Virus record (IMG/VR): IMGVR_UViG_3300037851_000058 | Coordinates: 1 to 45,981 of that record | Reading direction: 5' to 3' (one strand) | Origin: a virus | Taxonomy: Duplodnaviria; Caudoviricetes | Length of the DNA: 45,981 nucleotides | Shown: piece by piece, positions 1 to 45,912 of the stretch | Position numbering within the stretch: the first letter of the stretch is position 1 | How the letters are laid out: every line of letters begins with the position of its first letter | Notes under the pieces: generated by a model | Told to the model about the DNA's origin: nothing | Database searches by the model: none | The model's input: the letters and a program-made list of their open reading frames with translations, nothing else | Translations under genes and position numbers: made by a program

Positions 1-100
1 TCTCAACGGCGGAGGAGGGTCCAACGTATGAAAACTAAACTGATGGCGGCGGTGTTGCTGGGGATGTTGATCGGTCAGAATCTCGTCGGGCTGGCGGCGG
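1..100. repeat. Terminal direct repeat, left copy (circular overlap)
   Basis: 1..100 equals 45882..45981 except G11 vs A45892; ORFs run across the junction. Confidence 0.95.
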
Positions 101-186: not shown

Positions 187-350
187 CCGCTCAAGAGCGT
201 AGCGACGCGATTGCGAAGACTCTCTACATGGGCATGGTCCCGGACATCTGGACGATGATGGCACAAGCCGTGGTCATGCGACATCTGGAGGAGGCGTGGA
301 AGGAAGGATACGAAGCCGGAAAAGCGGCTCAAAAAAACAGGGGGGACTGA
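183..350 (+). CDS. Hypothetical protein (55 aa)
   Basis: Read by hand: MTAQERSDAIAKTLYM...; ATGA overlap with previous gene. Confidence 0.65.
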   Translation: MTAQERSDAIAKTLYMGMVPDIWTMMAQAVVMRHLEEAWKEGYEAGKAAQKNRGD

Positions 351-3545: not shown

Positions 3546-4118
3546 ATGCCCTCAAGGAACCCCCGGAAAGCTCGCGCGCCTTTTCCTCTCCCGAAAGAAA
3601 TTGAAGACAGACAAGACTTAAAAAAAGAGACCCCTCTCTCGACGCTGGCAGATCGCAAGCAAGCCTTCCTCGACAATTTCATCAAGTGGGGCACGCACTA
3701 TCACACCGCGAAAGCGATCGGTGTCGATGCGCCGACCGTGAGCGGCTGGAAGCACGACGACCCGGAGTTCAAGAAAGCGGTCGATGCGCTGGAGATGGTC
3801 CCGATCTACATGATCGAGCGCTCCGCCATGCGCCGCGCCATTGAAGGCAAGAGCGATGTGCTCTCGATCTTCATGCTCAAGTCCCGGATGCCGGAGAAGT
3901 ACGGAGAGAGGCAGAAGCAGGAAATCGAGATCACGATCCACAACGTCATGACTTCCCAGTTCGTCGCGTTGATCAGGCAGACCGTCCCGGACACCTGTCC
4001 GCACTGTCAGTCTTTTCTCGGGCTAACCGGAAAACTCGCGCAAGAGCTGAACAGCCTCAGCGCACGATTAGACCCGGAGGGTCACGCGATTGCCACCCGA
4101 AGTCCTCAACCCGAATAA
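3546..4118 (+). CDS. terS: Terminase small subunit (putative)
   Basis: HTH-like KQAFL...AKAIGVDAPTVSGWKHDDPEF and IFMLKSRMPEKYGE; directly upstream of TerL. Confidence 0.75.
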   Translation: MPSRNPRKARAPFPLPKEIEDRQDLKKETPLSTLADRKQAFLDNFIKWGTHYHTAKAIGVDAPTVSGWKHDDPEFKKAVDALEMVPIYMIERSAMRRAIEGKSDVLSIFMLKSRMPEKYGERQKQEIEITIHNVMTSQFVALIRQTVPDTCPHCQSFLGLTGKLAQELNSLSARLDPEGHAIATRSPQPE

Positions 4119-34002: not shown

Positions 34003-34371
34003 GTGGCGAAATACCGATACTTCAAGGATTCCGAAGTCGAAGGACTCGTCCATGATTTCGTCAAAAAACTGGACGACGCTCGAGGCATGGCGGGAATTCC
34101 ATTCGTGATCACCAGCGGGAAGCGCACGAAGGCGAAGAATGCCAGCGTGATCGGGGCGGTCGCGAACTCCGCGCATCTGAAAGGGCTCGCGGTGGATTTG
34201 AGGGTGCGCTCAACCCGGGAAGTCGCATTGATTCTCGACGCTTGCTATGAAGCCGGGATCAAGCGGCGCGGGATCTATGTGAATGAATTCATGCACCCGA
34301 TACACTTGCACGTCGATGACGATTCCGAGAAGGTGAGCCCGGTTATCTTCATCAAGCGGGAGGAGAATTGA
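34003..34371 (+). CDS. Endolysin, peptidase M15 family
   Basis: ITSGKR, SAH-x6-D (SAHLKGLAVD), HLHVD. Confidence 0.9.
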   Translation: MAKYRYFKDSEVEGLVHDFVKKLDDARGMAGIPFVITSGKRTKAKNASVIGAVANSAHLKGLAVDLRVRSTREVALILDACYEAGIKRRGIYVNEFMHPIHLHVDDDSEKVSPVIFIKREEN

Positions 34372-34733
34372 CCGCTCCCCAGATTGATCATGTTGCGGTA
34401 GAGCTTTACAAGCACGCCGACGCGAAGATTGAATCCTTGCGCGGGGACATCGGCGAAATGGTCCGGCATGATGTGGAGCTGGGGGTAAAGATCGACCATC
34501 TGGCGGAGCGGGTGGATCAGGGCGTGGCGGTGACCGGACAGAAAACCCTCGAGCAAGTCATGACCCTTGTGAATAAGCTCTCCGAATATAAAGTGCAGAT
34601 GGATCAGCAGGGCCTCGAGCTGGGCAATCATCGGAAGGAAATCGACCGGATCAATACGGCGGTCTTCTGGGTCGCGACGACCGGGGTGCTCGGAGGGATC
34701 GTCACGCTGGTGATCAAGTGGATTCATCCTTGA
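34368..34733 (+). CDS. Coiled-coil protein with C-terminal TM (holin/antiholin candidate)
   Basis: TTG start overlapping endolysin stop; single C-terminal TM. Confidence 0.6.
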   Translation: MTAPQIDHVAVELYKHADAKIESLRGDIGEMVRHDVELGVKIDHLAERVDQGVAVTGQKTLEQVMTLVNKLSEYKVQMDQQGLELGNHRKEIDRINTAVFWVATTGVLGGIVTLVIKWIHP

Positions 34734-34748
34734 CGGAAGGAGCCGCAC

Positions 34749-34958
34749 TTGTTTGACTATACGCTTAAAATGCTATGGAGACCCGACAGCCCGACCTTGT
34801 GCTCAGAAACCAACCACGTATTCTTATCCGCCGGGTCATCGTCCACGATTCGCGAGGGCGTGTCCTGCCAGTGCGGAAAAACCATTTCGACATTAAGGAC
34901 GTGCACGGAGTGCGGATCATTTCAGTTTACCGCTACCCCGAAAAAGGAGCTGTCATGA
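34749..34958 (+). CDS. Small Zn-binding protein
   Basis: SD AAGGAG; CQCG and CTEC. Confidence 0.6.
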   Translation: MFDYTLKMLWRPDSPTLCSETNHVFLSAGSSSTIREGVSCQCGKTISTLRTCTECGSFQFTATPKKELS

Positions 34959-35224
34959 ACATCGCTGAAATGCTGAACCCGAAGAAGTGGCTCGAGGGAG
35001 TAATCGTCACGAAGGTGCTCGGAAAATTCGCGAAGCACGCGACAGGCGCGGTGATCGGATTTCTGACCGGGCCGTGGTTCGCGAAAGTCGTCGCGCCGAT
35101 CTTAAATCAGGTCGGGATCAGCATCGACTTCTCAAAGTTCGAGGAGGGAATGACCGTCCTCCTGATCGGAGCCTTCGGTGCGCTCTGGAACTATATCCAG
35201 CATCGGTTCTTCAAAAAAAGCTAG
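34955..35224 (+). CDS. Holin candidate
   Basis: SD AAGGAG, ATG 34955; two hydrophobic segments, basic C-terminus. Confidence 0.6.
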   Translation: MNIAEMLNPKKWLEGVIVTKVLGKFAKHATGAVIGFLTGPWFAKVVAPILNQVGISIDFSKFEEGMTVLLIGAFGALWNYIQHRFFKKS

Positions 35225-35582
35225 TTACGCTTCGCTCCTCCGGAATGCGGAGGGGTCTAAGTGGGAGCGGGCGCTCGAGCTGTTAGTGCGCTGGTTCCAG
35301 CTCCCGAAGCCGGAGCGGTCCTACCGATTCCATCCGGAGCGGATGTGGAAGGCGGACTTCGCATGGCCCGCCCAGAAGCTCATCGTGGAATGTGAGGGCG
35401 GGATCTGGAAGCGCGGCGGCGGCGGGCATTCGCACCCGCTGGGGATTGAGCGAGACATCGAAAAGTACAACGCCGCGACGCTTTTGGGCTGGCGCATCCT
35501 TCGCTTGACTGATAAAATGCTGGCGAAGAAAAGGCTCGGCGAGACCGCCCAGCTCTTGCGGTCGGCGCTGAATCTGTTATAA
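35178..35582 (+). CDS. DUF559/Vsr-like endonuclease
   Basis: YRFHPERMWKADFAWP..KLIVECEGG...H...RDIEKYNAATLLGWRILR; start uncertain. Confidence 0.85.
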   Translation: MRSGTISSIGSSKKASYASLLRNAEGSKWERALELLVRWFQLPKPERSYRFHPERMWKADFAWPAQKLIVECEGGIWKRGGGGHSHPLGIERDIEKYNAATLLGWRILRLTDKMLAKKRLGETAQLLRSALNLL

Positions 35583-35583
35583 T
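35556..35583 (+). promoter_or_regulatory. Strong sigma70 promoter with extended -10
   Basis: TTGCGG-16 nt-TATAAT with TGn directly before the -10. Confidence 0.75.
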
Positions 35584-35589
35584 CCGTCC

Positions 35590-35690
35590 TGTACAGGGCG
35601 CGCTCGCGTTTGACCCTCCAGTTGCCGCGACCGCCCACTATATCGAGCAAGAGAGCCCTCCGTCGAAAGCCGGGGGGCTTTCTTTTTTTT
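35590..35690 (+). ncRNA. Putative ~100-nt sRNA with exposed anti-RBS loop
   Basis: Bounded by promoter and terminator; stems GGGCG/CGCCC and TCGCG/CGCGA close loop TTTGACCCTCCAGTTGC. Confidence 0.65.
35651..35690 (+). terminator. Intrinsic terminator
   Basis: 12-bp stem GAGAGCCCTCCG/CGGGGGGCTTTC followed by T8. Confidence 0.9.
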
Positions 35691-35695
35691 GAAAA

Positions 35696-36307
35696 ATGTT
35701 ATTTGATCAACAAGCTCTAATTTCGCAACAGGAGGGGCCAGCCATTTCGATTAAAAAAGTTTTTCCCCAGACCATCATTCTCACCCCCGAGAACATCGAG
35801 GCGTGCAAGGAATACACCCGGCTATGCGCGGGTCGCGTCGATGATCATGTGATGGAGCATCAAGATGTGATGCCGACCGCCGAACAGAACAAGCCCAGCT
35901 ATACGATGCTCACCGGAGCATGGGGCGAAGCGGCGGTGTCTCAATTCACTAAGATTCCGTGGGATCAAAAAGGCGAAACCCGCCACCGCCCGGATATGGT
36001 GATCAATGGGATCAAGGCCCAGATCCGCAACACCCGGATGGGCTGGCGCTTGCTCGTCCGAACATGGGACGCGAATTATGGCGCGCGCTATGTGATCGGG
36101 TGCTTCGGGACCGCGCCAGAGATCACGATCAAGGGGTGGATCTGGATCGAAGAAGCTTTCAAGATGAAGGAATGCTTCGGGCAACATCCGTTTCCGAAAC
36201 ACTTTTTAATTCCATACACTCAGCTCCATCTCGAAGCCTTTCCGGATGGTCAGCTCGAGCTACCGATTTTGGCGGGCTCGTCCCGCGACAGTCAAACGGT
36301 CCTGTAA
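35696..36307 (+). CDS. PD-(D/E)xK-like phage protein; true start may be ATT 35744
   Basis: GAWGEAAVS...RPD...AQIRNT...IKGWI. Confidence 0.6.
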   Translation: MLFDQQALISQQEGPAISIKKVFPQTIILTPENIEACKEYTRLCAGRVDDHVMEHQDVMPTAEQNKPSYTMLTGAWGEAAVSQFTKIPWDQKGETRHRPDMVINGIKAQIRNTRMGWRLLVRTWDANYGARYVIGCFGTAPEITIKGWIWIEEAFKMKECFGQHPFPKHFLIPYTQLHLEAFPDGQLELPILAGSSRDSQTVL

Positions 36308-36480: not shown

Positions 36481-36565
36481 GACAGATTTTTTGAAAAAGA
36501 ACCGCAATAGACGAACCCCTGAAAAATAACAGGCTTCGCTATTCGGCACGAAAAATGGAGGGATC

Positions 36566-37117: not shown

Positions 37118-37153
37118 TAGCCCGTCGGTAAGATTCAAAAAACAGGAGGGTAT

Positions 37154-38020
37154 ATGCAACAGGAAGAAGCGATAGAAGTTCCCGCCACCGCTCCCGCCAT
37201 TCTTAAACCCAACGAAGCCGTCGAACGAGTCAGTCGCGAATTGAACATGAATGCTGATTCACTCTGGGTCATGTTCGATCGGGCGATGAAATATCCGCGC
37301 GACATCGAGAAGGTTCTGGCGACCGCGATGCGCGAGCTGATCATCGTGCCGGAGCTGGCGGCGCGCTCGTATTATTCGATTCCCTACAACCTCGGGAAGC
37401 AGAACGAGTCGCGCGTTGAAGGGCCCGGGATCAAGGCGGCGATGACGCTCGCCCGGAACTGGGGAAACTGTCTCAATCAAGGCAAGATCGGCGGAGAGGA
37501 CAAGAGTTCGATTCTGGCGATTGGGGTCTTCATGGATTTTGAGACGGGCGCGCATTCCTACCGCGAGCTTCGAGTCTCGAAATTCTACAAGCCGCGCGGG
37601 TCGCAAGGCGTGGTCCCGAAGAATGCCGACATGATGTATAACTCGACGCAAGCCGGAGTCTCGAAGGCGGTCCGGAACGTGACGCTGGCGATGCTCCCGG
37701 ACTGGCTGGTGAATTCCTATTACGAGAAGGCGAAGGATCTTGTGATCAATCCGCCGAAGAAAATCGGCGCGACGGTCGAGTCGATTCAGAACCGCCTGAT
37801 GAAGGGCAAGCAAGCGATCTGTAAAGCCTTCGGGGTGAAGCCCGAGGAAATGGAAGCTTACCTCGCCGACAATGCCGACTCGATCGAGGACGACGCATCG
37901 CTTCTCAAGCACATCATCGGGTTATATACTGGATTGAAAGAGGGGCACTATACGGTGGATCAAGTCTTCCGGGGCGGGGAAGCGCCGACCGCCGCCGGGA
38001 TGCCTCAAGAAAAACGATGA
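37154..38020 (+). CDS. Putative ssDNA-annealing/recombination protein
   Basis: YYSIPY...VEGPGIKAA..LARNWGN; coupled to exonuclease; function inferred from context. Confidence 0.55.
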   Translation: MQQEEAIEVPATAPAILKPNEAVERVSRELNMNADSLWVMFDRAMKYPRDIEKVLATAMRELIIVPELAARSYYSIPYNLGKQNESRVEGPGIKAAMTLARNWGNCLNQGKIGGEDKSSILAIGVFMDFETGAHSYRELRVSKFYKPRGSQGVVPKNADMMYNSTQAGVSKAVRNVTLAMLPDWLVNSYYEKAKDLVINPPKKIGATVESIQNRLMKGKQAICKAFGVKPEEMEAYLADNADSIEDDASLLKHIIGLYTGLKEGHYTVDQVFRGGEAPTAAGMPQEKR

Positions 38021-38598
38021 CCTTCGTCTATGACGATGAGAAGCACGAGTACCGCCTCGATGGTCGGAAGCTCGTTTCCGTCACCGGAGTCTTAAAGGCG
38101 GCGGGGCTCCTCGATCAGATCTGGCCCGACGATGATGCGCGCTGGCGCGGCGAGGCGACGCATAAGGCGGTGGAGCTTTACGCGAAAGGGACGCTCGATC
38201 CGGCGACGGTGGACCCGCGCATTCAACCCCGGCTCGATGCCTTCGCGAAGTTCCAGCGTGACACCGGGTTCCGGATGATCGAGAGCGAGAAGCCCTACTA
38301 CAACCCGGCCTATAACCTCGCGTGCAAGCCGGATCTATTCGGGATCTTCCCGGATGGCTCCGAGGGGTTGGTGGAGATTAAGAGCGGCGGGCTGGCGAAG
38401 TGGGTGCGCTTGCAAGTCGCCGGACAGGACATCACGCTCGGCGGCGGGCGACCGCGCTCGCGCTGGGGCCTTTCGCTCGCCGGAGGAAAACCCAGCGTTC
38501 AGCGCTATAATGACCCCGACGACATTTCGATCTTTATGTCGGCAATGAATGTGGCCCATTGGAAAATAAAATACGCGAACTGGAGGGATCATGACTGA
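38017..38598 (+). CDS. PD-(D/E)xK exonuclease
   Basis: HEY...SVT.VL, RG...H, E, KPDL, VEIKSG, LQ. Confidence 0.85.
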   Translation: MTFVYDDEKHEYRLDGRKLVSVTGVLKAAGLLDQIWPDDDARWRGEATHKAVELYAKGTLDPATVDPRIQPRLDAFAKFQRDTGFRMIESEKPYYNPAYNLACKPDLFGIFPDGSEGLVEIKSGGLAKWVRLQVAGQDITLGGGRPRSRWGLSLAGGKPSVQRYNDPDDISIFMSAMNVAHWKIKYANWRDHD

Positions 38599-39313
38599 TC
38601 TCATGACGCAAGACGTACCGTTGAAAGCCTACGAATCGAATTACCGAGAGCACTTGAGCATCGAAGAACAGTCCCGCCGCCTCGCTCTCCAAATCAAAAA
38701 CCAAGAAACTTACGAAGCCGCCTCAGCGTATCTGCTTCGCATTAAAGATATGCGGAAGCGCTGGGCGGAGGTCATCAAGCCCGCCGTGAAAGCCGCGCAC
38801 GAAGCGCACGCGCGGATCAAGGACGTGGAGAAGGTCGTCGATGGACCGCTGGCCCGGTCGGAATCAGAAATCCTCAAGCCCGCGCTGGTGCGCTGGACCG
38901 AGGCGGAGGATCTGCGCCGCCGGGAGGAACAGGAGCGGGTGAACCGGGAGCTGAGGAAGCAGGAGGAAGACCGGAAGATCGCGCTCGCTGAGGAGCTGGC
39001 GAAGTCGGGCAAGACCGAGCTGGCGGACGCGGTGCTGGAATCGCCGATGACCATGCCGGAGGTTGTTCTCCCTAAGGCGGCGGAGGTCAAGGGAATCAAT
39101 TACCGGACCCGCTATTTCGCCGAGGTCGTGGATCTCAAGAAATTATGCGCGGCGGTCGCGGATGGAACCGCGCCGCTCGAGTTCGTGGTCGCGAATGGTC
39201 CGTGGCTCAATCGGGTCGCGGCGGAGATGAAAGAGGCGGTCAACCCGCAATGGGAGAAGTGGGGCTTGCGGGTGGGATCAGAGAAGATTGTGAGCGCTGG
39301 CGGCGGGAGGTAA
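38591..39313 (+). CDS. Coiled-coil protein of the recombination module
   Basis: Long charged helices then short beta C-terminus; Gam/Gp157-like architecture by inference. Confidence 0.6.
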   Translation: MTDLMTQDVPLKAYESNYREHLSIEEQSRRLALQIKNQETYEAASAYLLRIKDMRKRWAEVIKPAVKAAHEAHARIKDVEKVVDGPLARSESEILKPALVRWTEAEDLRRREEQERVNRELRKQEEDRKIALAEELAKSGKTELADAVLESPMTMPEVVLPKAAEVKGINYRTRYFAEVVDLKKLCAAVADGTAPLEFVVANGPWLNRVAAEMKEAVNPQWEKWGLRVGSEKIVSAGGGR

Positions 39314-40912: not shown

Positions 40913-41293
40913 ATGCCGCCAAAGCAGGAAAAAACATTCGAGGAAAAGGTGTGGCACATCATCGCGGAGTCCAGCAACGACCGGGGCGGAGGGTCCGTCC
41001 TTCGGGTCATGAGCTGGATCGTGGACGGAAAGATGGGGAAGCCGTGCATCGACAAGCGGGACTGGTGGATGACCGAGGACAACGAGAAGCGGGTCGGAAA
41101 AGCGAAGGGCCTGACCGGGTACGATCTTCTGACCATTCTCCGAACGCTCGACGTGGTGGCGAAGGCGCTCCAGATTCCGGCGGAGGACATTCGCCTCGCG
41201 CTGGACGTGGAGCGGAAAGCGTCGAACAATCCGGAAACCGCGCCAGAGACAGCGGCGGCGGGCGGGGAGAAAAAAGCCGACCCGTGGGGGTAG
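40913..41293 (+). CDS. PC4/YdbC-like ssDNA-binding protein
   Basis: LRVMSW...P.IDKRDW...GKAKGLT; flexible tail ending DPWG. Confidence 0.7.
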   Translation: MPPKQEKTFEEKVWHIIAESSNDRGGGSVLRVMSWIVDGKMGKPCIDKRDWWMTEDNEKRVGKAKGLTGYDLLTILRTLDVVAKALQIPAEDIRLALDVERKASNNPETAPETAAAGGEKKADPWG

Positions 41294-41922
41294 TTCCTCC
41301 GATCGTCAATGAAACGCTTCTTCCCTTCCTGATCGGGCTCGGCGAGCTGGTCACGGACCCGAAGAATGCGCGGACCCATGATGAGCGGAACATTGCGGTG
41401 ATCATGGAATCGCTCGCGCAATATGGACAGCAGACCCCGATAGTTTATCTGAAAGACGGGAACGTGGTGATCAAGGGGAACGCGACTCTGGAAGCGGCGA
41501 AGCGCCTCGGCTGGTCCCAGATCGCGGCGATTCCATTCGACCGGGATGCGCTCAAGGCGGCGGGCTATAAGCTTACCGACAACCGGGCGGGCGAGCTGTC
41601 CGGCTGGGGACCGCTTCTGCGGGACAGTCTGGAGGAGCTGGTCGGCTGGGGGGTGGATCTCTCCCGGCTGGGCTGGGCGGACGAGGAGCTGAAAGAGTTC
41701 ATCACCGACCCCCAGATCCTCAGTCAGATCGGGCTCCCGGACATCGAGAATAATCTCCGGGAATGCACCTTCATTCTCTCGGAGGCGCAATACCTCACGG
41801 TGAGCGAAGCGATCCGGGAAGCGAAGAAGAAGGCGGGAGAGCCCGAAGAAGATAACGAGAACACCAACGGGAACGGACTGGCGGCGGTATGTCGATTCTA
41901 TCTACAAGCGGTCAAGCAATAG
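41284..41922 (+). CDS. ParB N-terminal domain protein
   Basis: PKNARTH...SL.QYGQQTPI...VIKGNATLEAAKRLG...DNR..ELS.W; GTG 41284 preferred over 40894. Confidence 0.85.
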   Translation: MGVVPPIVNETLLPFLIGLGELVTDPKNARTHDERNIAVIMESLAQYGQQTPIVYLKDGNVVIKGNATLEAAKRLGWSQIAAIPFDRDALKAAGYKLTDNRAGELSGWGPLLRDSLEELVGWGVDLSRLGWADEELKEFITDPQILSQIGLPDIENNLRECTFILSEAQYLTVSEAIREAKKKAGEPEEDNENTNGNGLAAVCRFYLQAVKQ

Positions 41923-42581
41923 ACGTAAAGGACATCCGGATCGACCGGATTGATTCAACCTCGGCGAACGCCTTCGTGCGCCGCTGGCATTACTCCGGGA
42001 CGGTGACGAACAATTCTCAGCTCCACTTCGGGGCTTTCTTTTCCGGGAAGCTTCACGGAGTGATGAGCTTCGGCCCGCCGATGGATCGCCGCCGCATTCT
42101 CCCGCTGGTGGAGGGGACGGGCTGGTCCCAGATGGTCGAATTGAACCGGATGGCCTTCGATGAAACGCTTCCGAAGAATTCGGAGTCGCGGAGTCTTTCG
42201 ATCGCGCTCCGGCTGATCCGCAAGCACGCGCCGCACGTGAAGTGGGTGGTGTCTTTTTCGGATGCGTGCCGCTCTGGGGATGGGACGATCTATCGGGCGT
42301 GCGGATTCCTGCTTACCCAGATCAACCGGAACAAGACGATCCTCCGGCTCCCGGACGGGACGATCCGGGCGAACCTCGCTTTTCATCTGGGGAAGCACGC
42401 GCTCAAGACCGGGAAGGCCAGCGAGCCCGAAGGCGCGGTCCCGATCCCGGGGTTTCAGCTCCGGTATATTTATTTTCTAGACCCGGCATGGCGGGCCCGG
42501 CTCACGGTTCCGGTCCTGCCTTATTCCGCGATCGCTGAGGCGGGCGCGAAAATGTACCGGGGTCAATCGCTGGCAAAGTGA
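41889..42581 (+). CDS. mom: Mom-family adenine-modifying enzyme (GNAT fold)
   Basis: ANAFVRRWHYS, GVMSFG, ELNRM, PKNSESR, VVSFSD, GTIYRACGF. Confidence 0.88.
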   Translation: MSILSTSGQAIDVKDIRIDRIDSTSANAFVRRWHYSGTVTNNSQLHFGAFFSGKLHGVMSFGPPMDRRRILPLVEGTGWSQMVELNRMAFDETLPKNSESRSLSIALRLIRKHAPHVKWVVSFSDACRSGDGTIYRACGFLLTQINRNKTILRLPDGTIRANLAFHLGKHALKTGKASEPEGAVPIPGFQLRYIYFLDPAWRARLTVPVLPYSAIAEAGAKMYRGQSLAK

Positions 42582-42824: not shown

Positions 42825-42855
42825 TTGCAGAGTGCTATATATCCTGATATATAAT
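42825..42855 (+). promoter_or_regulatory. Early promoter with palindromic operator candidate
   Basis: TTGCAG...TATAAT (17-19 nt spacing); TATATATC-CT-GATATATA at 42836-42853. Confidence 0.65.
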
Positions 42856-42894
42856 AGTGTGGACGGAAGGATTCAGCAACAGGAGGGCTCGAAA

Positions 42895-43113
42895 ATGGAA
42901 ACAATGGAATGGTTCAAAACTGCCTGCGAGCCGGGGACCTGCTCCGGGAGATTCTGCGCGGATTCAATCAAGACTGACCACTCTGGCCGCTGGTACATCA
43001 CTATGGGCCACCCGGGATTTAATAGCCCAGCCAATAACCGCATGGGCTACGCTTCCCGGGCGAAGGCGGAAGCGGCGCGCCGCCACTATGCCGAGCGGAT
43101 GGTGAGACCATGA
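42895..43113 (+). CDS. Hypothetical protein
   Basis: SD AACAGGAGGG, ATG 42895. Confidence 0.7.
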   Translation: METMEWFKTACEPGTCSGRFCADSIKTDHSGRWYITMGHPGFNSPANNRMGYASRAKAEAARRHYAERMVRP

Positions 43114-43316
43114 GCCGCCGGGAAATCGCTCCCTGCCTCTGCGGGGCTTATGCTCACCGGGACGGGGCTTGTTTCGATGGGCGGGTGTGCGAGGCGAAGG
43201 CTTGCGAATTTGAAGCCGAGAAGGGCTCGCGATTCTGCGAGGAGCACGGATTCAAAAATGAACGCCACCTGATGATTCCCAACAAGGGGCGAAAAACTGG
43301 AGGGACCAAACAATGA
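43110..43316 (+). CDS. Cys-rich small protein
   Basis: CLC, C-x4-C...FCEEH; ATGA coupling. Confidence 0.6.
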   Translation: MSRREIAPCLCGAYAHRDGACFDGRVCEAKACEFEAEKGSRFCEEHGFKNERHLMIPNKGRKTGGTKQ

Positions 43317-44278
43317 GTGCGAACGTGAACACGATGATGTATGTGGGCGAGAAACCGTGGCATGGGCTGGGAGTGAAGCTCGAGAAGGCGGCTACCTCGG
43401 CGGAAGCGATCACCGCCGCTGGGCTGGACTGGGCGGTTGAGAAGCGCCCGGTGACCTTCCTCGACAACGAAGGGAAGTCCCGGGAAGTCCCGGGGAAATT
43501 CGTAACGGTCCGGGCGGATACCCAGAAACCCCTCGGGGTGGTGGGCTCCGATTGGACCCCGATCCAGAATCGAGAAGCCTTCTCGTTCTTCGATGCGGTC
43601 GTTGGCGAGAAGCTGGCGATCTATCACACCGCCGGGGCTCTCGGCGATGGACAGCGGGTCTGGATTCTCGCGAAGCTTCCCGGGCACATTCGGGTCATCG
43701 GTGATGACGTGGTTGAGAAATTCCTGCTTCTCTCGAACGGGCATGACGGCGGGCTGGCCTATCGAATGGGCTTCACGCCGATCCGGGTTGTCTGCCAGAA
43801 CACGCTGAACATCGCCCTGAAAGAGGGGTCCATCCTCTCGGCGAAGCTCCGGCATACCTCCGGGATCGGGCTCCGGGTCAACGAAGTCCGGGAACAGCTC
43901 GGGATCGTGGCGGGCCTCTACCAGACCTTCGAGGAGCTATCGAAGCGCCTTGTTCAGGTTCCCATGAGCGTGAGCCGGGCCTCGGACTTCTTCAAGGGGA
44001 CGATCATCCCAAAGCCGAAGGAAGGCGAGACAGAGCTGGGCGCGCGCTCGAAGAAAATGCTCGAGGACGTGCTGAACCTGTTCGAGCATGGGCGCGGGAA
44101 TGACCTCCCGGGAGTGAAGGGGACCGCATGGGCGGCTTTCAATGCGGTGACGGAATTCGCCGACTACCGCCCGGTGCGCGGCGGGGATGAGGCGAGCCGC
44201 GCTCATTCGATCCTCTGGGGCTATGGTGCGGATATCAAACAACGCGCTTGGGATGCCGCCCTTGCGCTGGCGAAATAA
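43313..44278 (+). CDS. DUF932 (TIGR03299-type) phage/plasmid protein
   Basis: PWHGLG, AGLDW.V, IQN.EAF.FFD, TAGAL, HDG, TPIRVVCQNTL, GTAWAAFNAVTE. Confidence 0.92.
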   Translation: MSANVNTMMYVGEKPWHGLGVKLEKAATSAEAITAAGLDWAVEKRPVTFLDNEGKSREVPGKFVTVRADTQKPLGVVGSDWTPIQNREAFSFFDAVVGEKLAIYHTAGALGDGQRVWILAKLPGHIRVIGDDVVEKFLLLSNGHDGGLAYRMGFTPIRVVCQNTLNIALKEGSILSAKLRHTSGIGLRVNEVREQLGIVAGLYQTFEELSKRLVQVPMSVSRASDFFKGTIIPKPKEGETELGARSKKMLEDVLNLFEHGRGNDLPGVKGTAWAAFNAVTEFADYRPVRGGDEASRAHSILWGYGADIKQRAWDAALALAK

Positions 44279-44295
44279 AACAGGAGGGACTGAAA

Positions 44296-44661
44296 ATGGA
44301 AAATGAAAAAAAGGACAACTCGGTGCTGAATTACTTCGACCGGATGATCGGATCGCTCCAAGGCTTGCCGGACGTGGTGAAAACCAAGCCGACAACCATG
44401 CGGGTGGTTCCGACCTTCGGGCTGGGCTCCTACGTGTATGTGGTCCAGACCTTCCGCCAGAAGGAAATCGGGGACATCATCTTCCTCGAGAATGTCTCAG
44501 AGAATGGAACCGTGCGGGTGGTGATTCCGCCAGCGGTCGCCGACGTGATCGCGCGACAGCGGGACCAGCTCTCGAAGCGAAACCGGAGCCGCGCCAGCCG
44601 ACAGGCGATGGCGGACCGGATGGCTCGAGGCGAGAAGCCCGGGTTCATGAAGCACAAGTAA
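44296..44661 (+). CDS. Hypothetical protein
   Basis: SD AACAGGAGGG, ATG 44296. Confidence 0.7.
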   Translation: MENEKKDNSVLNYFDRMIGSLQGLPDVVKTKPTTMRVVPTFGLGSYVYVVQTFRQKEIGDIIFLENVSENGTVRVVIPPAVADVIARQRDQLSKRNRSRASRQAMADRMARGEKPGFMKHK

Positions 44662-44709: not shown

Positions 44710-44742
44710 ATGGACGGCCAAGTCAAAAACTGGAGGGCGGTC

Positions 44743-44910
44743 ATGGTTGAGATCATTTATCACCTATGCCGAGAGTGCGGGCGGAGGATTCAGGACACCT
44801 CGGACATTCTCGAGGCTTTCTGCTCGCATGAGTGCCGAGAACAGCACGAGTACGAGAAAAGGAAATTGATCGAGTGGAGCGAAAAAAATTCATGGAGCCA
44901 AGGAATCTGA
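44743..44910 (+). CDS. Small Zn-finger protein
   Basis: SD AACTGGAGGG; CREC...FCSHEC. Confidence 0.65.
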   Translation: MVEIIYHLCRECGRRIQDTSDILEAFCSHECREQHEYEKRKLIEWSEKNSWSQGI

Positions 44911-45053
44911 ACGAGACCGTTCGCCTCTGCTTCGCTTGCGGGTGCGAAGTCGGCGGAGAGCATGATCACGAAGGGGCGGTTCGTTACGTCCCTCTCGCCT
45001 TCATTCCTCCGGAGCTGAGAGCCGGAGGGTTCGACGATCTCGACGACGAATGA
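44892..45053 (+). CDS. Small hypothetical protein
   Basis: CFAC...HDH; acidic tail. Confidence 0.55.
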   Translation: MEPRNLNETVRLCFACGCEVGGEHDHEGAVRYVPLAFIPPELRAGGFDDLDDE

Positions 45054-45065
45054 ACTGGAGGGCTT

Positions 45066-45326
45066 GTGAGAATATCAACGACGTGGGACTATTTCCACCG
45101 GGAGTGCAATCTGCGTGATTGTGAGCGGCGCTATTGCTCCGCGCACCGCCTTCTCTGGAGGGATTGCGAAACCGCGAAGGCGGGGCTCGAAGGCGATCGA
45201 GATGTAATCGGCGGGCTCCATGAGATCTACGAGCTGGGGGACTGCCCCGAATGCGAGAGGGAAGCGGAGGGACGAAAGTATGGGTATGCGCCGAAGATTC
45301 ACGAAGCTTCTCCGGGAAGATCCTAA
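45066..45326 (+). CDS. Cys-rich hypothetical protein
   Basis: SD AACTGGAGGG, GTG start; C-x4-C, CSAH, CPEC. Confidence 0.65.
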   Translation: MRISTTWDYFHRECNLRDCERRYCSAHRLLWRDCETAKAGLEGDRDVIGGLHEIYELGDCPECEREAEGRKYGYAPKIHEASPGRS

Positions 45327-45645
45327 CCGACAGAAGCTTTTCCCGGTGGTCCTGACCCCGGAGGAGCACGAGTATTTGATCCGCGCCGCGCGGGCCTACA
45401 ATGTCATGGCCTCGATGCTGGTGCGCTCTCGGACCTTCTTCCGGGGCTGGCGGCGGGAGCTGGACGAATTGCGGGCGGCTCAGGGCAACGAGCCGATCGA
45501 AAAATGGGACGCGCGCCGAAGCTGGCGAGGGAGGAAAAAAGCGCATGAACTGGACATGCCTAATCAGGGGACACCAGAAGCGGACAGTAGACGGAACGGA
45601 GCGGGCGCTGGTTTACCAGAAGGGCGGGAAGCGTCCGACCGTTGA
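45280..45645 (+). CDS. Putative ribbon-helix-helix DNA-binding protein
   Basis: KLFPVVLTPEEHEYLIRAARAYNVMASMLVR; SD GGAGGG. Confidence 0.55.
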   Translation: MGMRRRFTKLLREDPNRQKLFPVVLTPEEHEYLIRAARAYNVMASMLVRSRTFFRGWRRELDELRAAQGNEPIEKWDARRSWRGRKKAHELDMPNQGTPEADSRRNGAGAGLPEGREASDR

Positions 45646-45757
45646 GTATTTCTCCGGGCGCTACAGCTATTGCCAGCGCCGGGGGTGTGAGTGGACCAGC
45701 TACGAAGGATCAAGCGCGCCTTATAAGCGCGAAGTCAAAACTGGGGGTGTTCAATGA
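45545..45757 (+). CDS. Small Zn-binding phage protein
   Basis: SD GGAGG; MNWTCLIRGH...CQRRGC. Confidence 0.6.
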   Translation: MNWTCLIRGHQKRTVDGTERALVYQKGGKRPTVEYFSGRYSYCQRRGCEWTSYEGSSAPYKREVKTGGVQ

Positions 45758-45912
45758 GCGGGTGGGTTTACGTCAAGAGCGAGCCTCATCTATGGACCGT
45801 CGGGTTTTATTCGCCCGACGGGAACTGGCACACGGACAGCGATTGGTCGAGGCAGGAAGAAGCCGCCCGGAGGGTTCATTATCTCAACGGCAGAGGAGGG
45901 TCCAACGTATGA
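45754..45912 (+). CDS. Small phage protein (52 aa)
   Basis: Read by hand: MSGWVYVKSEPHLWTVGFYSPDGNWHTDSD...AARRVHYLNG; ATGA coupling at both ends. Confidence 0.75.
   Translation: MSGWVYVKSEPHLWTVGFYSPDGNWHTDSDWSRQEEAARRVHYLNGRGGSNV

What the first reader, a model, noticed from the sequence alone, without database searches (positions are those of the whole stretch)
35556..35690. Candidate RNA repressor: sRNA whose loop is antisense to the shared RBS of the early genes
Seen: an extended -10 promoter (TTGCGG-16-TATAAT) and a T8 terminator bound about 100 nt with no gene. A GC stem (35596-35608/35626-35636) exposes a 17-nt loop containing CCCTCCAGTT (35614-35623). This is the exact reverse complement of AACTGGAGGG, the RBS at 38578, 43295, 44728 and 45053, and is one mismatch from AACAGGAGGG at 35727, 37141, 42878 and 44279. 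Variants at 336 and 45739 change A to G where G.U pairing is kept. The terL RBS (GGAGGGTCA) also matches 9 nt of the loop. Established: C-rich-loop sRNAs (S. aureus RNAIII, RsaE) block SD sequences, and P4 CI and P1 C4 are RNA immunity factors. Inference: one sRNA silences a whole phage regulon through a standardised RBS, acting as immunity factor or early-to-late switch in a genome with no recognisable CI.
Basis: partly seen in the sequence, partly recalled or inferred. Interest (0 to 1): 0.9.

Follow-up and report, generated by a model that had tools for sequence, protein, structure and literature searches.

The report
Late-RNA hairpin mirroring early ribosome sites
At the end of its virion and lysis genes, this uncultured phage and seven relatives carry a predicted RNA hairpin whose loop is complementary to the ribosome-binding tag shared by their own early genes, and loop and tag change together between phages, so one RNA likely shuts off early protein synthesis.

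Summary
Loop 35614-35623 is the only exact reverse copy of AACTGGAGGG, which precedes four early genes.

A hairpin sits at the same place, right after the nuclease gene ending the late operon, in 7 of 9 relatives whose DNA covers the site. Its loop follows each phage's own early tag: AACT, ACCT, ACTT or AACC before GGAGG. In all 4 complete genomes the loop's extension is the commonest of 256 four-mers at early sites. Pooled, it matches 19 of 93 early and 0 of 142 late sites. True loop-genome pairing scores best of 5,040 permutations.

The promoter is not conserved, and in four relatives the hairpin is part of the late message's 3' end. An early-to-late translational shut-off is therefore likelier than immunity. 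No transcript or repression has been shown.

Subcluster K1 mycobacteriophages carry a similar loop against their unexplained SAS motif, but without covariation. I found no Rfam family or paper for this. The scan noted this architecture before on other, unrelated DNA.

The parts
35178..35582 (+). DUF559-like nuclease gene, last gene of the structural/lysis gene run; its stop codon lies inside the TATAAT
   Evidence: phrog_503 E 5e-25; DUF559 below Pfam cut-off, E 0.0025; homologue directly upstream of the hairpin in relatives
35556..35583 (+). Possible internal extended -10 promoter (TTGCGG-16-TG.TATAAT); not conserved in most relatives
   Evidence: sequence; TATAAT at the same place in L203, weaker -10-like boxes in G009 and L210, none seen in G010, G011, L207, L201
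35596..35636 (+). Predicted RNA hairpin carrying the anti-RBS loop
   Evidence: folds; same position and fold, different stem sequence, in 7 relatives
35609..35625 (+). Loop UUUGACCCUCCAGUUGC; seed CCCUCCAGUU at 35614-35623
   Evidence: only exact reverse complement of AACTGGAGGG in the genome; covaries with early RBS
35649..35690 (+). Intrinsic terminator (14-pair stem, T8), likely end of late transcription
38578..38587 (+). Exact target RBS of gene 38591-39313 (phrog_10477, exonuclease)
43295..43304 (+). Exact target RBS of gene 43313-44278 (DUF932); best predicted site
44728..44737 (+). Exact target RBS of small gene 44743-44910
45053..45062 (+). Exact target RBS of gene 45066-45326
35727..35736 (+). 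One-mismatch site AACAGGAGGG, followed by in-frame ATT at 35744 (possible non-standard start of ORF 35696-36307)
36553..36562 (+).
37141..37150 (+). One-mismatch RBS of gene 37154-38020 (phrog_3657, unknown function); the orthologous RBS carries the tag in most relatives
42878..42887 (+). One-mismatch RBS of gene 42895-43113, behind a TATAAT at 42850
44279..44288 (+). One-mismatch RBS of gene 44296-44661
45739..45748 (+). Variant RBS AACTGGGGGT of gene 45754-45912 (one G-U pair, one mismatch)
336..345 (+). Variant RBS AACAGGGGGG of gene 352-573
14..25 (+). RBS GGAGGGTCCAAC of gene 28-186; pairs with the 5' half of the loop (11 of 12 letters)
4076..4084 (+). terL RBS GGAGGGTCA, 9-nt match to the loop; a late gene, so an exception to the early-only rule

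Best explanation
The predicted hairpin at the 3' end of the late (virion and lysis) gene run likely acts in trans as a translational repressor: its loop is complementary to a tag built around the Shine-Dalgarno sequence of a subset of the phage's early genes and would block ribosome entry once late RNA accumulates. Shown by sequence: complementarity, position, early-versus-late selectivity and loop/tag covariation. Inferred: that the RNA exists, folds this way, pairs in the cell, represses rather than activates, and acts late. The active form could be the whole late message, a stable 3' fragment, or, in this genome and L203, a roughly 100-nt RNA from the internal TATAAT promoter. Many late genes use the ordinary A-GGAGG context, which pairs only with the 5-nt core, so most would escape.
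For: Position: 7 of 9 relatives covering the site carry the hairpin there (G009, G010, G011, L201, L203, L207, L210).

Selectivity: the loop's 4-nt extension ranks first of 256 among early SD sites in 4 of 4 complete genomes (5/19, 4/16, 3/18, 4/19 early; 0/30, 0/32, 0/34, 0/36 late). Pooled over 9 sequences it matches 19/93 early and 0/142 late sites, Fisher p 7e-9.

Covariation: the base after GGAGG also follows the loop at 17 of 23 tagged sites. True loop-genome assignment is best of 5,040 permutations of 7 lineages, for all three choices of representative. On a protein tree the tag types are interspersed, which implies several separate changes.

RNA rather than DNA: two loop changes inside the core (CUUCC in G010/G011/L207, UCUCC in L201) are both C-to-U opposite G and keep a G-U pair.

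Controls: a generic anti-SD does not separate early from late starts in any of the 4 genomes (p 0.08-0.98). None of 79 other DUF559 loci showed the element (read by eye).

Precedent: unpaired C-rich motifs that block initiation complexes are established for RsaE (PMC2790875, abstract).
Against: No transcript or repression data exist.

The hairpin alone is weakly stable in this genome, G009, L201, L210 and L212 (z -0.3 to -1.6). The alignment-based consensus gives only 4 pairs, so stem covariation is not formally shown.

Only about a fifth to a quarter of early SD sites carry the exact tag. The early-late energy gap over all starts is modest: p 0.015, 0.044, 0.26 and 0.002, and 0.023 with accessibility.

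L207 (3-nt extension) and L212 (0 of 4 sites) miss the 4-nt test. L213 has no separate hairpin, and L211 has a different one. The AACAGGAGGG class in this genome (5 copies) has a mismatch next to the core. The terL RBS, a late gene, ranks 9th of 67 predicted sites.

The loops were picked by eye at the syntenic site, gene starts were called by a rough script, and the genomes are related, so the p-values overstate independence.
Confidence: 0.65

Rival explanations
1. A stand-alone sRNA from the TATAAT promoter, made from the start of infection or in a carrier state, represses early genes as an immunity or feedback factor.
For: TG.TATAAT lies about 12 nt before the stem here. TATAAT is at the same place in L203, with TTGACG-17-TAGGTT in G009 and TAAGAT in L210. 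TATAAT boxes also precede early genes (37113, 42850). No CI-like protein was found in the window.
Against: All four boxes contain the nuclease gene's stop codon, which supplies half the letters. No box was seen in G010, G011, L207 or L201, where the hairpin abuts or overlaps the gene end. No integrase was found, and the ParB-like domain is fused to a DNA methyltransferase in the relatives, so nothing points to lysogeny.
Confidence: 0.15
2. The hairpin acts in cis: as a terminator or processing site, or by pairing with the first early RBS downstream on read-through RNA. The shared RBS is then a translation-strength preference.
For: In G010, G011 and L207 a T-run follows the stem directly. The first RBS downstream is tagged in this genome, G009, G011 and L210. 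The first stem-loop downstream in G011 itself holds the tagged RBS.
Against: It does not explain why tags many kilobases away change with the loop. A terminator loop has no reason to be 10-17 nt and complementary to them. In G010 the first tagged RBS is about 950 nt away, and in L203 and L201 over 1 kb.
Confidence: 0.1
3. The motif is a DNA operator or protein-binding site (stoperator-like), and the loop is simply one copy in the other orientation.
For: Asymmetric repeated 13-mers acting on transcription are known from cluster A mycobacteriophages (mentioned in PMC3203893, passages). In cluster K phages the SAS motif persists where the matching loop has drifted or gone. Small HTH proteins occur in the relatives' early regions.
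Against: The reversed copy always sits in a predicted loop at one fixed place, and its core changes are G-U compatible. The sense copies sit at ribosome-binding distance from start codons.
Confidence: 0.06
4. The loop is a general anti-Shine-Dalgarno decoy aimed at host mRNAs (host shut-off), or pairing enhances rather than blocks translation.
For: The core CCUCC pairs with any GGAGG. Host transcripts were not examined.
Against: The flanks track the phage's own early tags. Pairing covers the whole SD core, which blocks initiation in known cases (PMC2790875, abstract).
Confidence: 0.04

Closest known systems
RsaE and related C-rich-motif sRNAs of Staphylococcus aureus (PMC2790875, abstract read)
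   Same: An unpaired C-rich motif pairs with the ribosome-binding site of several mRNAs and would block initiation.
   Different: Those are host RNAs using a short UCCC seed. Here a phage element has a 9-13 nt seed whose targets share a genome-specific tag that changes with the loop. No Rfam match.
C4 antisense RNA of phage P1 (PMC8198154, passages read); P4 CI RNA (recalled)
   Same: Phage RNA that controls the phage's own genes by base pairing.
   Different: C4 controls one operon (c4-icd-ant) in lysogeny. Here the targets are SD sites of many separate genes, the RNA lies at the late 3' end, and no integrase or Rfam C4 match was found.
Start-associated sequences (SAS) of cluster K mycobacteriophages (PMC3203893 passages; PMC11373665 passages and section 19)
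   Same: A conserved tag at the RBS of non-structural genes, function unknown, with one reversed copy in subcluster K1. In Adephagia that copy is the 10-nt loop of a strong predicted hairpin (z -6) between genes 92 and 93, the interval where late transcription is reported to start.
   Different: Unrelated sequence. The element lies near the start, not the end, of late transcription. No covariation: SAS stays fixed while the loop is exact in 4 of 9 phages aligned, drifted in 3 and replaced in 2.
T4 RegB endoribonuclease (PMC3014915, passages read)
   Same: Inactivates early phage mRNAs through their Shine-Dalgarno motif while sparing late ones; the closest functional parallel.
   Different: RegB is a protein nuclease cutting GGAG with ribosomal protein S1, made early. 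Here the predicted agent is an RNA made with late genes.

Membership tests
Any Rfam 15 family (including C4, RsaE, RNAIII) | Covariance-model score at or above the gathering threshold | tested here: not met
   0 matches in the window; 5 sub-threshold matches, those on the element driven by the terminator
C-rich-loop SD-blocking sRNAs (RsaE type) | Conserved, unpaired C-rich motif complementary to SD sequences | tested here: met
   Core predicted open or cheap to open (1.3-5.7 kcal/mol) and conserved in position in 8 sequences; prediction only, no probing
C-rich-loop SD-blocking sRNAs (RsaE type) | Discrete stable transcript | not testable with these tools
   No RNA run holding the stretch was listed
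C-rich-loop SD-blocking sRNAs (RsaE type) | Blocks initiation-complex formation on targets | not testable with these tools
   Needs toeprinting or reporters
P1 C4 / P4 CI immunity RNAs | Encoded in a lysogeny/immunity region of a temperate element, upstream of an antirepressor or target operon | tested here: not met
   Lies after lysis genes; no integrase or antirepressor family in 72 window proteins or in 67 early-region proteins of three relatives
P1 C4 / P4 CI immunity RNAs | tRNA-like fold processed by RNase P (recalled, not from a call) | tested here: inconclusive
   Predicted fold is one hairpin plus terminator; processing not testable
SAS-type start tags (cluster K) | Conserved asymmetric motif at RBS position, confined to non-structural genes, one orientation | tested here: met
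   19/93 early vs 0/142 late sites
SAS-type start tags (cluster K) | The 13-bp consensus GGGATAGGAGCCC and its upstream inverted repeats (ESAS) | tested here: not met
   The tag here is A(A/C)C(T/C)GGAGG-type; upstream inverted repeats were not searched for
3'-UTR-derived sRNAs (class recalled) | Lies between the last stop codon and the operon terminator, or overlaps the gene end | tested here: met
   True in the window and 7 relatives; release as a separate RNA not testable

The most novel reading that the evidence does not exclude
Phages have an undescribed RNA-only developmental switch: early genes carry a private tag around their Shine-Dalgarno site, and the late transcript carries the matching anti-tag loop, so late transcription itself turns early translation off. 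The switch has arisen in unrelated phages, and the reversed SAS of subcluster K1 mycobacteriophages is a culturable example that would give SAS, unexplained since 2011, part of its function.
Probability: 0.4. Interest if true: 0.92.

Novelty: new variant of a known kind. Interest (0 to 1): 0.8.

Why it matters
Known early-to-late switches in phages use proteins (sigma factors, antiterminators, T4 RegB). A loop on the late RNA that silences a set of early genes through a co-evolving RBS tag would be a new control circuit. The natural loop/tag pairs found here (AACT, ACCT, ACTT, AACC types) give ready-made cognate and non-cognate pairs for a reporter test in a laboratory strain, and could serve as orthogonal translational switches. 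The Adephagia hairpin makes the open SAS question directly testable in a cultured phage with existing RNA-seq.

Tried and rejected
Searches that found nothing useful:
- The pattern scan TATAAT..CCCTCCWGTT in viral contigs gave 119 loci. In the output shown (the middle was cut) none looked like the element; many were one low-GC coding match.
- blastn of the region against phage records gave 3 chance hits, none on the element.
- Single-protein scans for relatives found none. The protein behind site 35727 has no homologue but itself.
- No RNA holder was listed. Laying three DNA runs gave no variant over the hairpin.
- The host 16S 3' end was not found in the one candidate host genome.

Analyses that failed or added nothing:
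- One search had a one-base offset for all loops except the window's; its extension counts and ranks are void and one search replaces them.
- RNAalifold on the MAFFT alignment kept only 4 pairs. The model built from it found only its 8 training hairpins and the G010 duplicate in 57 sources.

Readings considered and rejected:
- The loop as an RBS of a minus-strand gene: no start codon follows it, although a promoter-like site lies upstream on that strand.
- The CCTCCGGTTT in L213: it lies in the codons of the nuclease's conserved WRxxR motif and was not counted.
- G012 and G014 have different early modules, and G006 and G013 stop before the site; none was counted.
- Cluster K as a covarying case: rejected. 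No reversed SAS in an open loop was found in the whole genomes of Pixie, TM4 or AnnaSerena.
- A small screen of 156 sequences found 15 repeated extended-SD 9-mers. Outside this clade 1 of 7 had reversed copies, and those were folded into stems.

Full report
Setting. The window is a whole phage record of 45,981 bases whose ends overlap by about 100 nt with one mismatch. The genes I recognised are on the + strand: terminase to tail at 3546-33609, lysis genes near 34003-35224, a DUF559-like nuclease at 35178-35582, then DNA-metabolism and small genes from 35696 round to 3479. I call the first block late and the second early by gene content; timing is inferred. The only host clue is one 3.6-kb contig of an Elusimicrobia MAG with a 61% identical terminase, which is weak. 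No integrase or CI-like family was found among 72 window proteins.

Observation. AACTGGAGGG occurs exactly four times on +, each before an early start codon, and once on -, as the loop at 35614-35623. There are six one-mismatch copies on +: five at early starts (one followed only by ATT) and one inside a late gene. The predicted fold gives the stated stem, 4 weak pairs inside the 17-nt loop, and a strong terminator. Taken alone the hairpin is unremarkable (z -1.9 and -0.9), and the TATAAT contains the upstream stop codon. The case therefore rests on comparison. Rfam has no match.

Relatives. A capsid alignment gave 40 loci. I fetched whole records for eight relatives and mapped synteny. Three with terminal repeats (G009, G010, G011; CheckV 100, 100 and 80%) share the early module. 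An alignment of the phrog_3657 protein returned these three and 15 metagenome loci. Nine of the 18 cover the end of the nuclease gene.

Seven of the nine carry a hairpin there:
- G009: loop UCCUCCAGGUUU, early tag AAACCUGGAGG
- G010, G011 and L207: loop GCUUCCAGGUU, tag AACCUGGAGG (ACCCUGGAGG in L207)
- L203: loop ACCUCCAAGUUUU, tag AAAACUUGGAGGU (13 of 13 complementary)
- L201: loop CUCUCCGGUUU, tag AACCGGAGG
- L210: loop ACCUCCGGUUG, tag ACCGGAGGU at four starts
L212 has two CCUCC runs in an unclear fold, and L213 has no separate hairpin. L211 lacks the nuclease gene and has a different hairpin; L215 has a different gene order. The other seven hold neither the nuclease gene nor a model hit in the DNA available. 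Fragments found through the terminase (L121, L122, L124) show AACTGGAGG at early starts but do not reach the site.

Statistics. Among script-called SD sites, the 4 bases that the loop predicts before GGAGG are the commonest of 256 four-mers in the early region of all four complete genomes, and are absent from their late sites (5/19, 4/16, 3/18, 4/19 versus 0/30, 0/32, 0/34, 0/36). In the fragments the counts are 1/3, 1/3, 1/9, 0/2 and 0/4. Pooled, this is 19/93 versus 0/142. The base after GGAGG follows the loop at 17 of 23 tagged sites, though for G009 that base is common at late sites too (18/28). With the three identical loops counted once, the true assignment of loops to genomes scores best of 5,040 permutations. 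A tree of the phrog_3657 protein (18 rows) interleaves the tag types: ACCT occurs in two separate starred groups, AACC in L201 and in L210 (a long, uncertain branch), AACT in the window, and ACTT in L203. That suggests about four matched changes. A generic anti-SD (recalled motif) does not separate early from late starts. The loops do in three of four genomes, at p 0.002-0.044. A rough duplex-plus-opening calculation for 67 window starts puts early genes in the top four places, with terL ninth. None of 79 other DUF559 loci showed the element when read by eye. These tests share ancestry, hand-picked loops and rough gene calls, so the p-values are guides, not exact odds.

How it most likely works. 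Complementarity, position, selectivity and covariation are shown. Two loop changes inside the core keep G-U pairs, which points to RNA pairing rather than a DNA site. Pairing covers the whole SD core, which blocks initiation in RsaE (PMC2790875, abstract only), so repression is inferred. In every case the hairpin lies between the last late gene and the terminator, or is itself followed by the T-run (G010, G011, L207), or overlaps the gene end (L201, G011). It would therefore be carried by late RNA whether or not the internal promoter works. TATAAT recurs only in L203, with weaker boxes in G009 and L210, all over the stop codon. With no integrase found and ParB fused to a methyltransferase in the relatives, an early-to-late shut-off fits better than immunity. 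The targets are a subset of early genes, not the whole regulon, and the terL match in this genome is unexplained. The starts of terL reading frames in three relatives show no obvious counterpart (read by eye).

Comparison with what is known. T4 RegB inactivates early mRNAs at GGAG motifs but is a protein (PMC3014915, passages). P1 C4 acts on one operon in lysogeny (PMC8198154, passages). Cluster K mycobacteriophages carry an unexplained 13-bp start tag, SAS, with one reversed copy in subcluster K1 (PMC3203893, passages). Its role was still called ill-defined in 2024 (PMC11373665, passages and section 19). In Adephagia that reversed copy is the loop of a strong predicted hairpin (z -6) between genes 92 and 93. 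The paper places the late start in that interval, but not relative to the hairpin in what I read. The region is conserved in 152 records. In nine aligned phages the stem is kept with different sequences, but the loop is exact in four, drifted in three and replaced in two, while SAS is unchanged in the five such genomes checked. AnnaSerena, with a similar tag (PMC7302621, passages), has no such loop. This is a lead, and it also shows that a tag can persist without the loop. I read no supplements; figure S3 of PMC3203893 lists the reversed sites.

Novelty. Nine literature searches (listings read, six papers opened) showed no description of a phage RNA antisense to a shared tag on its own early RBSs. 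The library lacks most subscription papers. It does have many notes of the same architecture on other DNA (66 findings hold the search words), some already citing SAS. I read these after my own tests, did not check their genomes, and do not count them as support. The pairing mechanism is of a known kind, so I class this as a new variant. The circuit, if confirmed, would be a new way to time phage development.

Noticed in passing
window 35727-35746: The tagged RBS is followed by an in-frame ATT at 35744 and no ATG/GTG/TTG; ORF 35696-36307 may start at a non-standard codon, as its ATG at 35696 has no room for an RBS after the terminator.
   Followed up: partly
L199:1245-1296 (G010): A second, partial copy of the anti-RBS hairpin about 100 nt downstream of the first.
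   Followed up: partly
L199:1902-1957 (G010): Five tandem TTATCCACA boxes (DnaA-box consensus, recalled) upstream of the early genes; possibly a host-DnaA-dependent origin.
   Followed up: no
L296:33660-33720 (Adephagia, JF704105 about 58,660-58,720): The reversed SAS is the loop of a strong hairpin in the interval where late transcription is reported to start; stem kept across cluster K genera, loop exact only in the Anayavirus members seen.
   Followed up: yes
window, about 45283-45551: Small ORF conserved in L121, L122, L124, L128 and G009. The overlapping frames scanned (45220-45645, 45280-45645) had no family match, and I did not confirm they are the conserved frame. A candidate regulator, untested.
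   Followed up: partly
window 41284-42581: ParB-like domain next to a Mom-family gene; relatives carry ParB fused to a DNA methyltransferase at a similar place, so this is likely a DNA-modification module rather than partitioning.
   Followed up: partly
L135 (minus strand; record G008): A distant terminase relative has its own repeated RBS context ATCAGGAGG at three starts; no reversed copy was seen in the DNA examined.
   Followed up: partly
L211:1245-1310: A long hairpin with a pyrimidine-rich loop at the late-early junction of a more distant relative; no match to its RBSs established.
   Followed up: no
G012 (L189-L190): Same structural module joined to an unrelated, oppositely oriented replication module; no hairpin found by the model.
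   Followed up: partly
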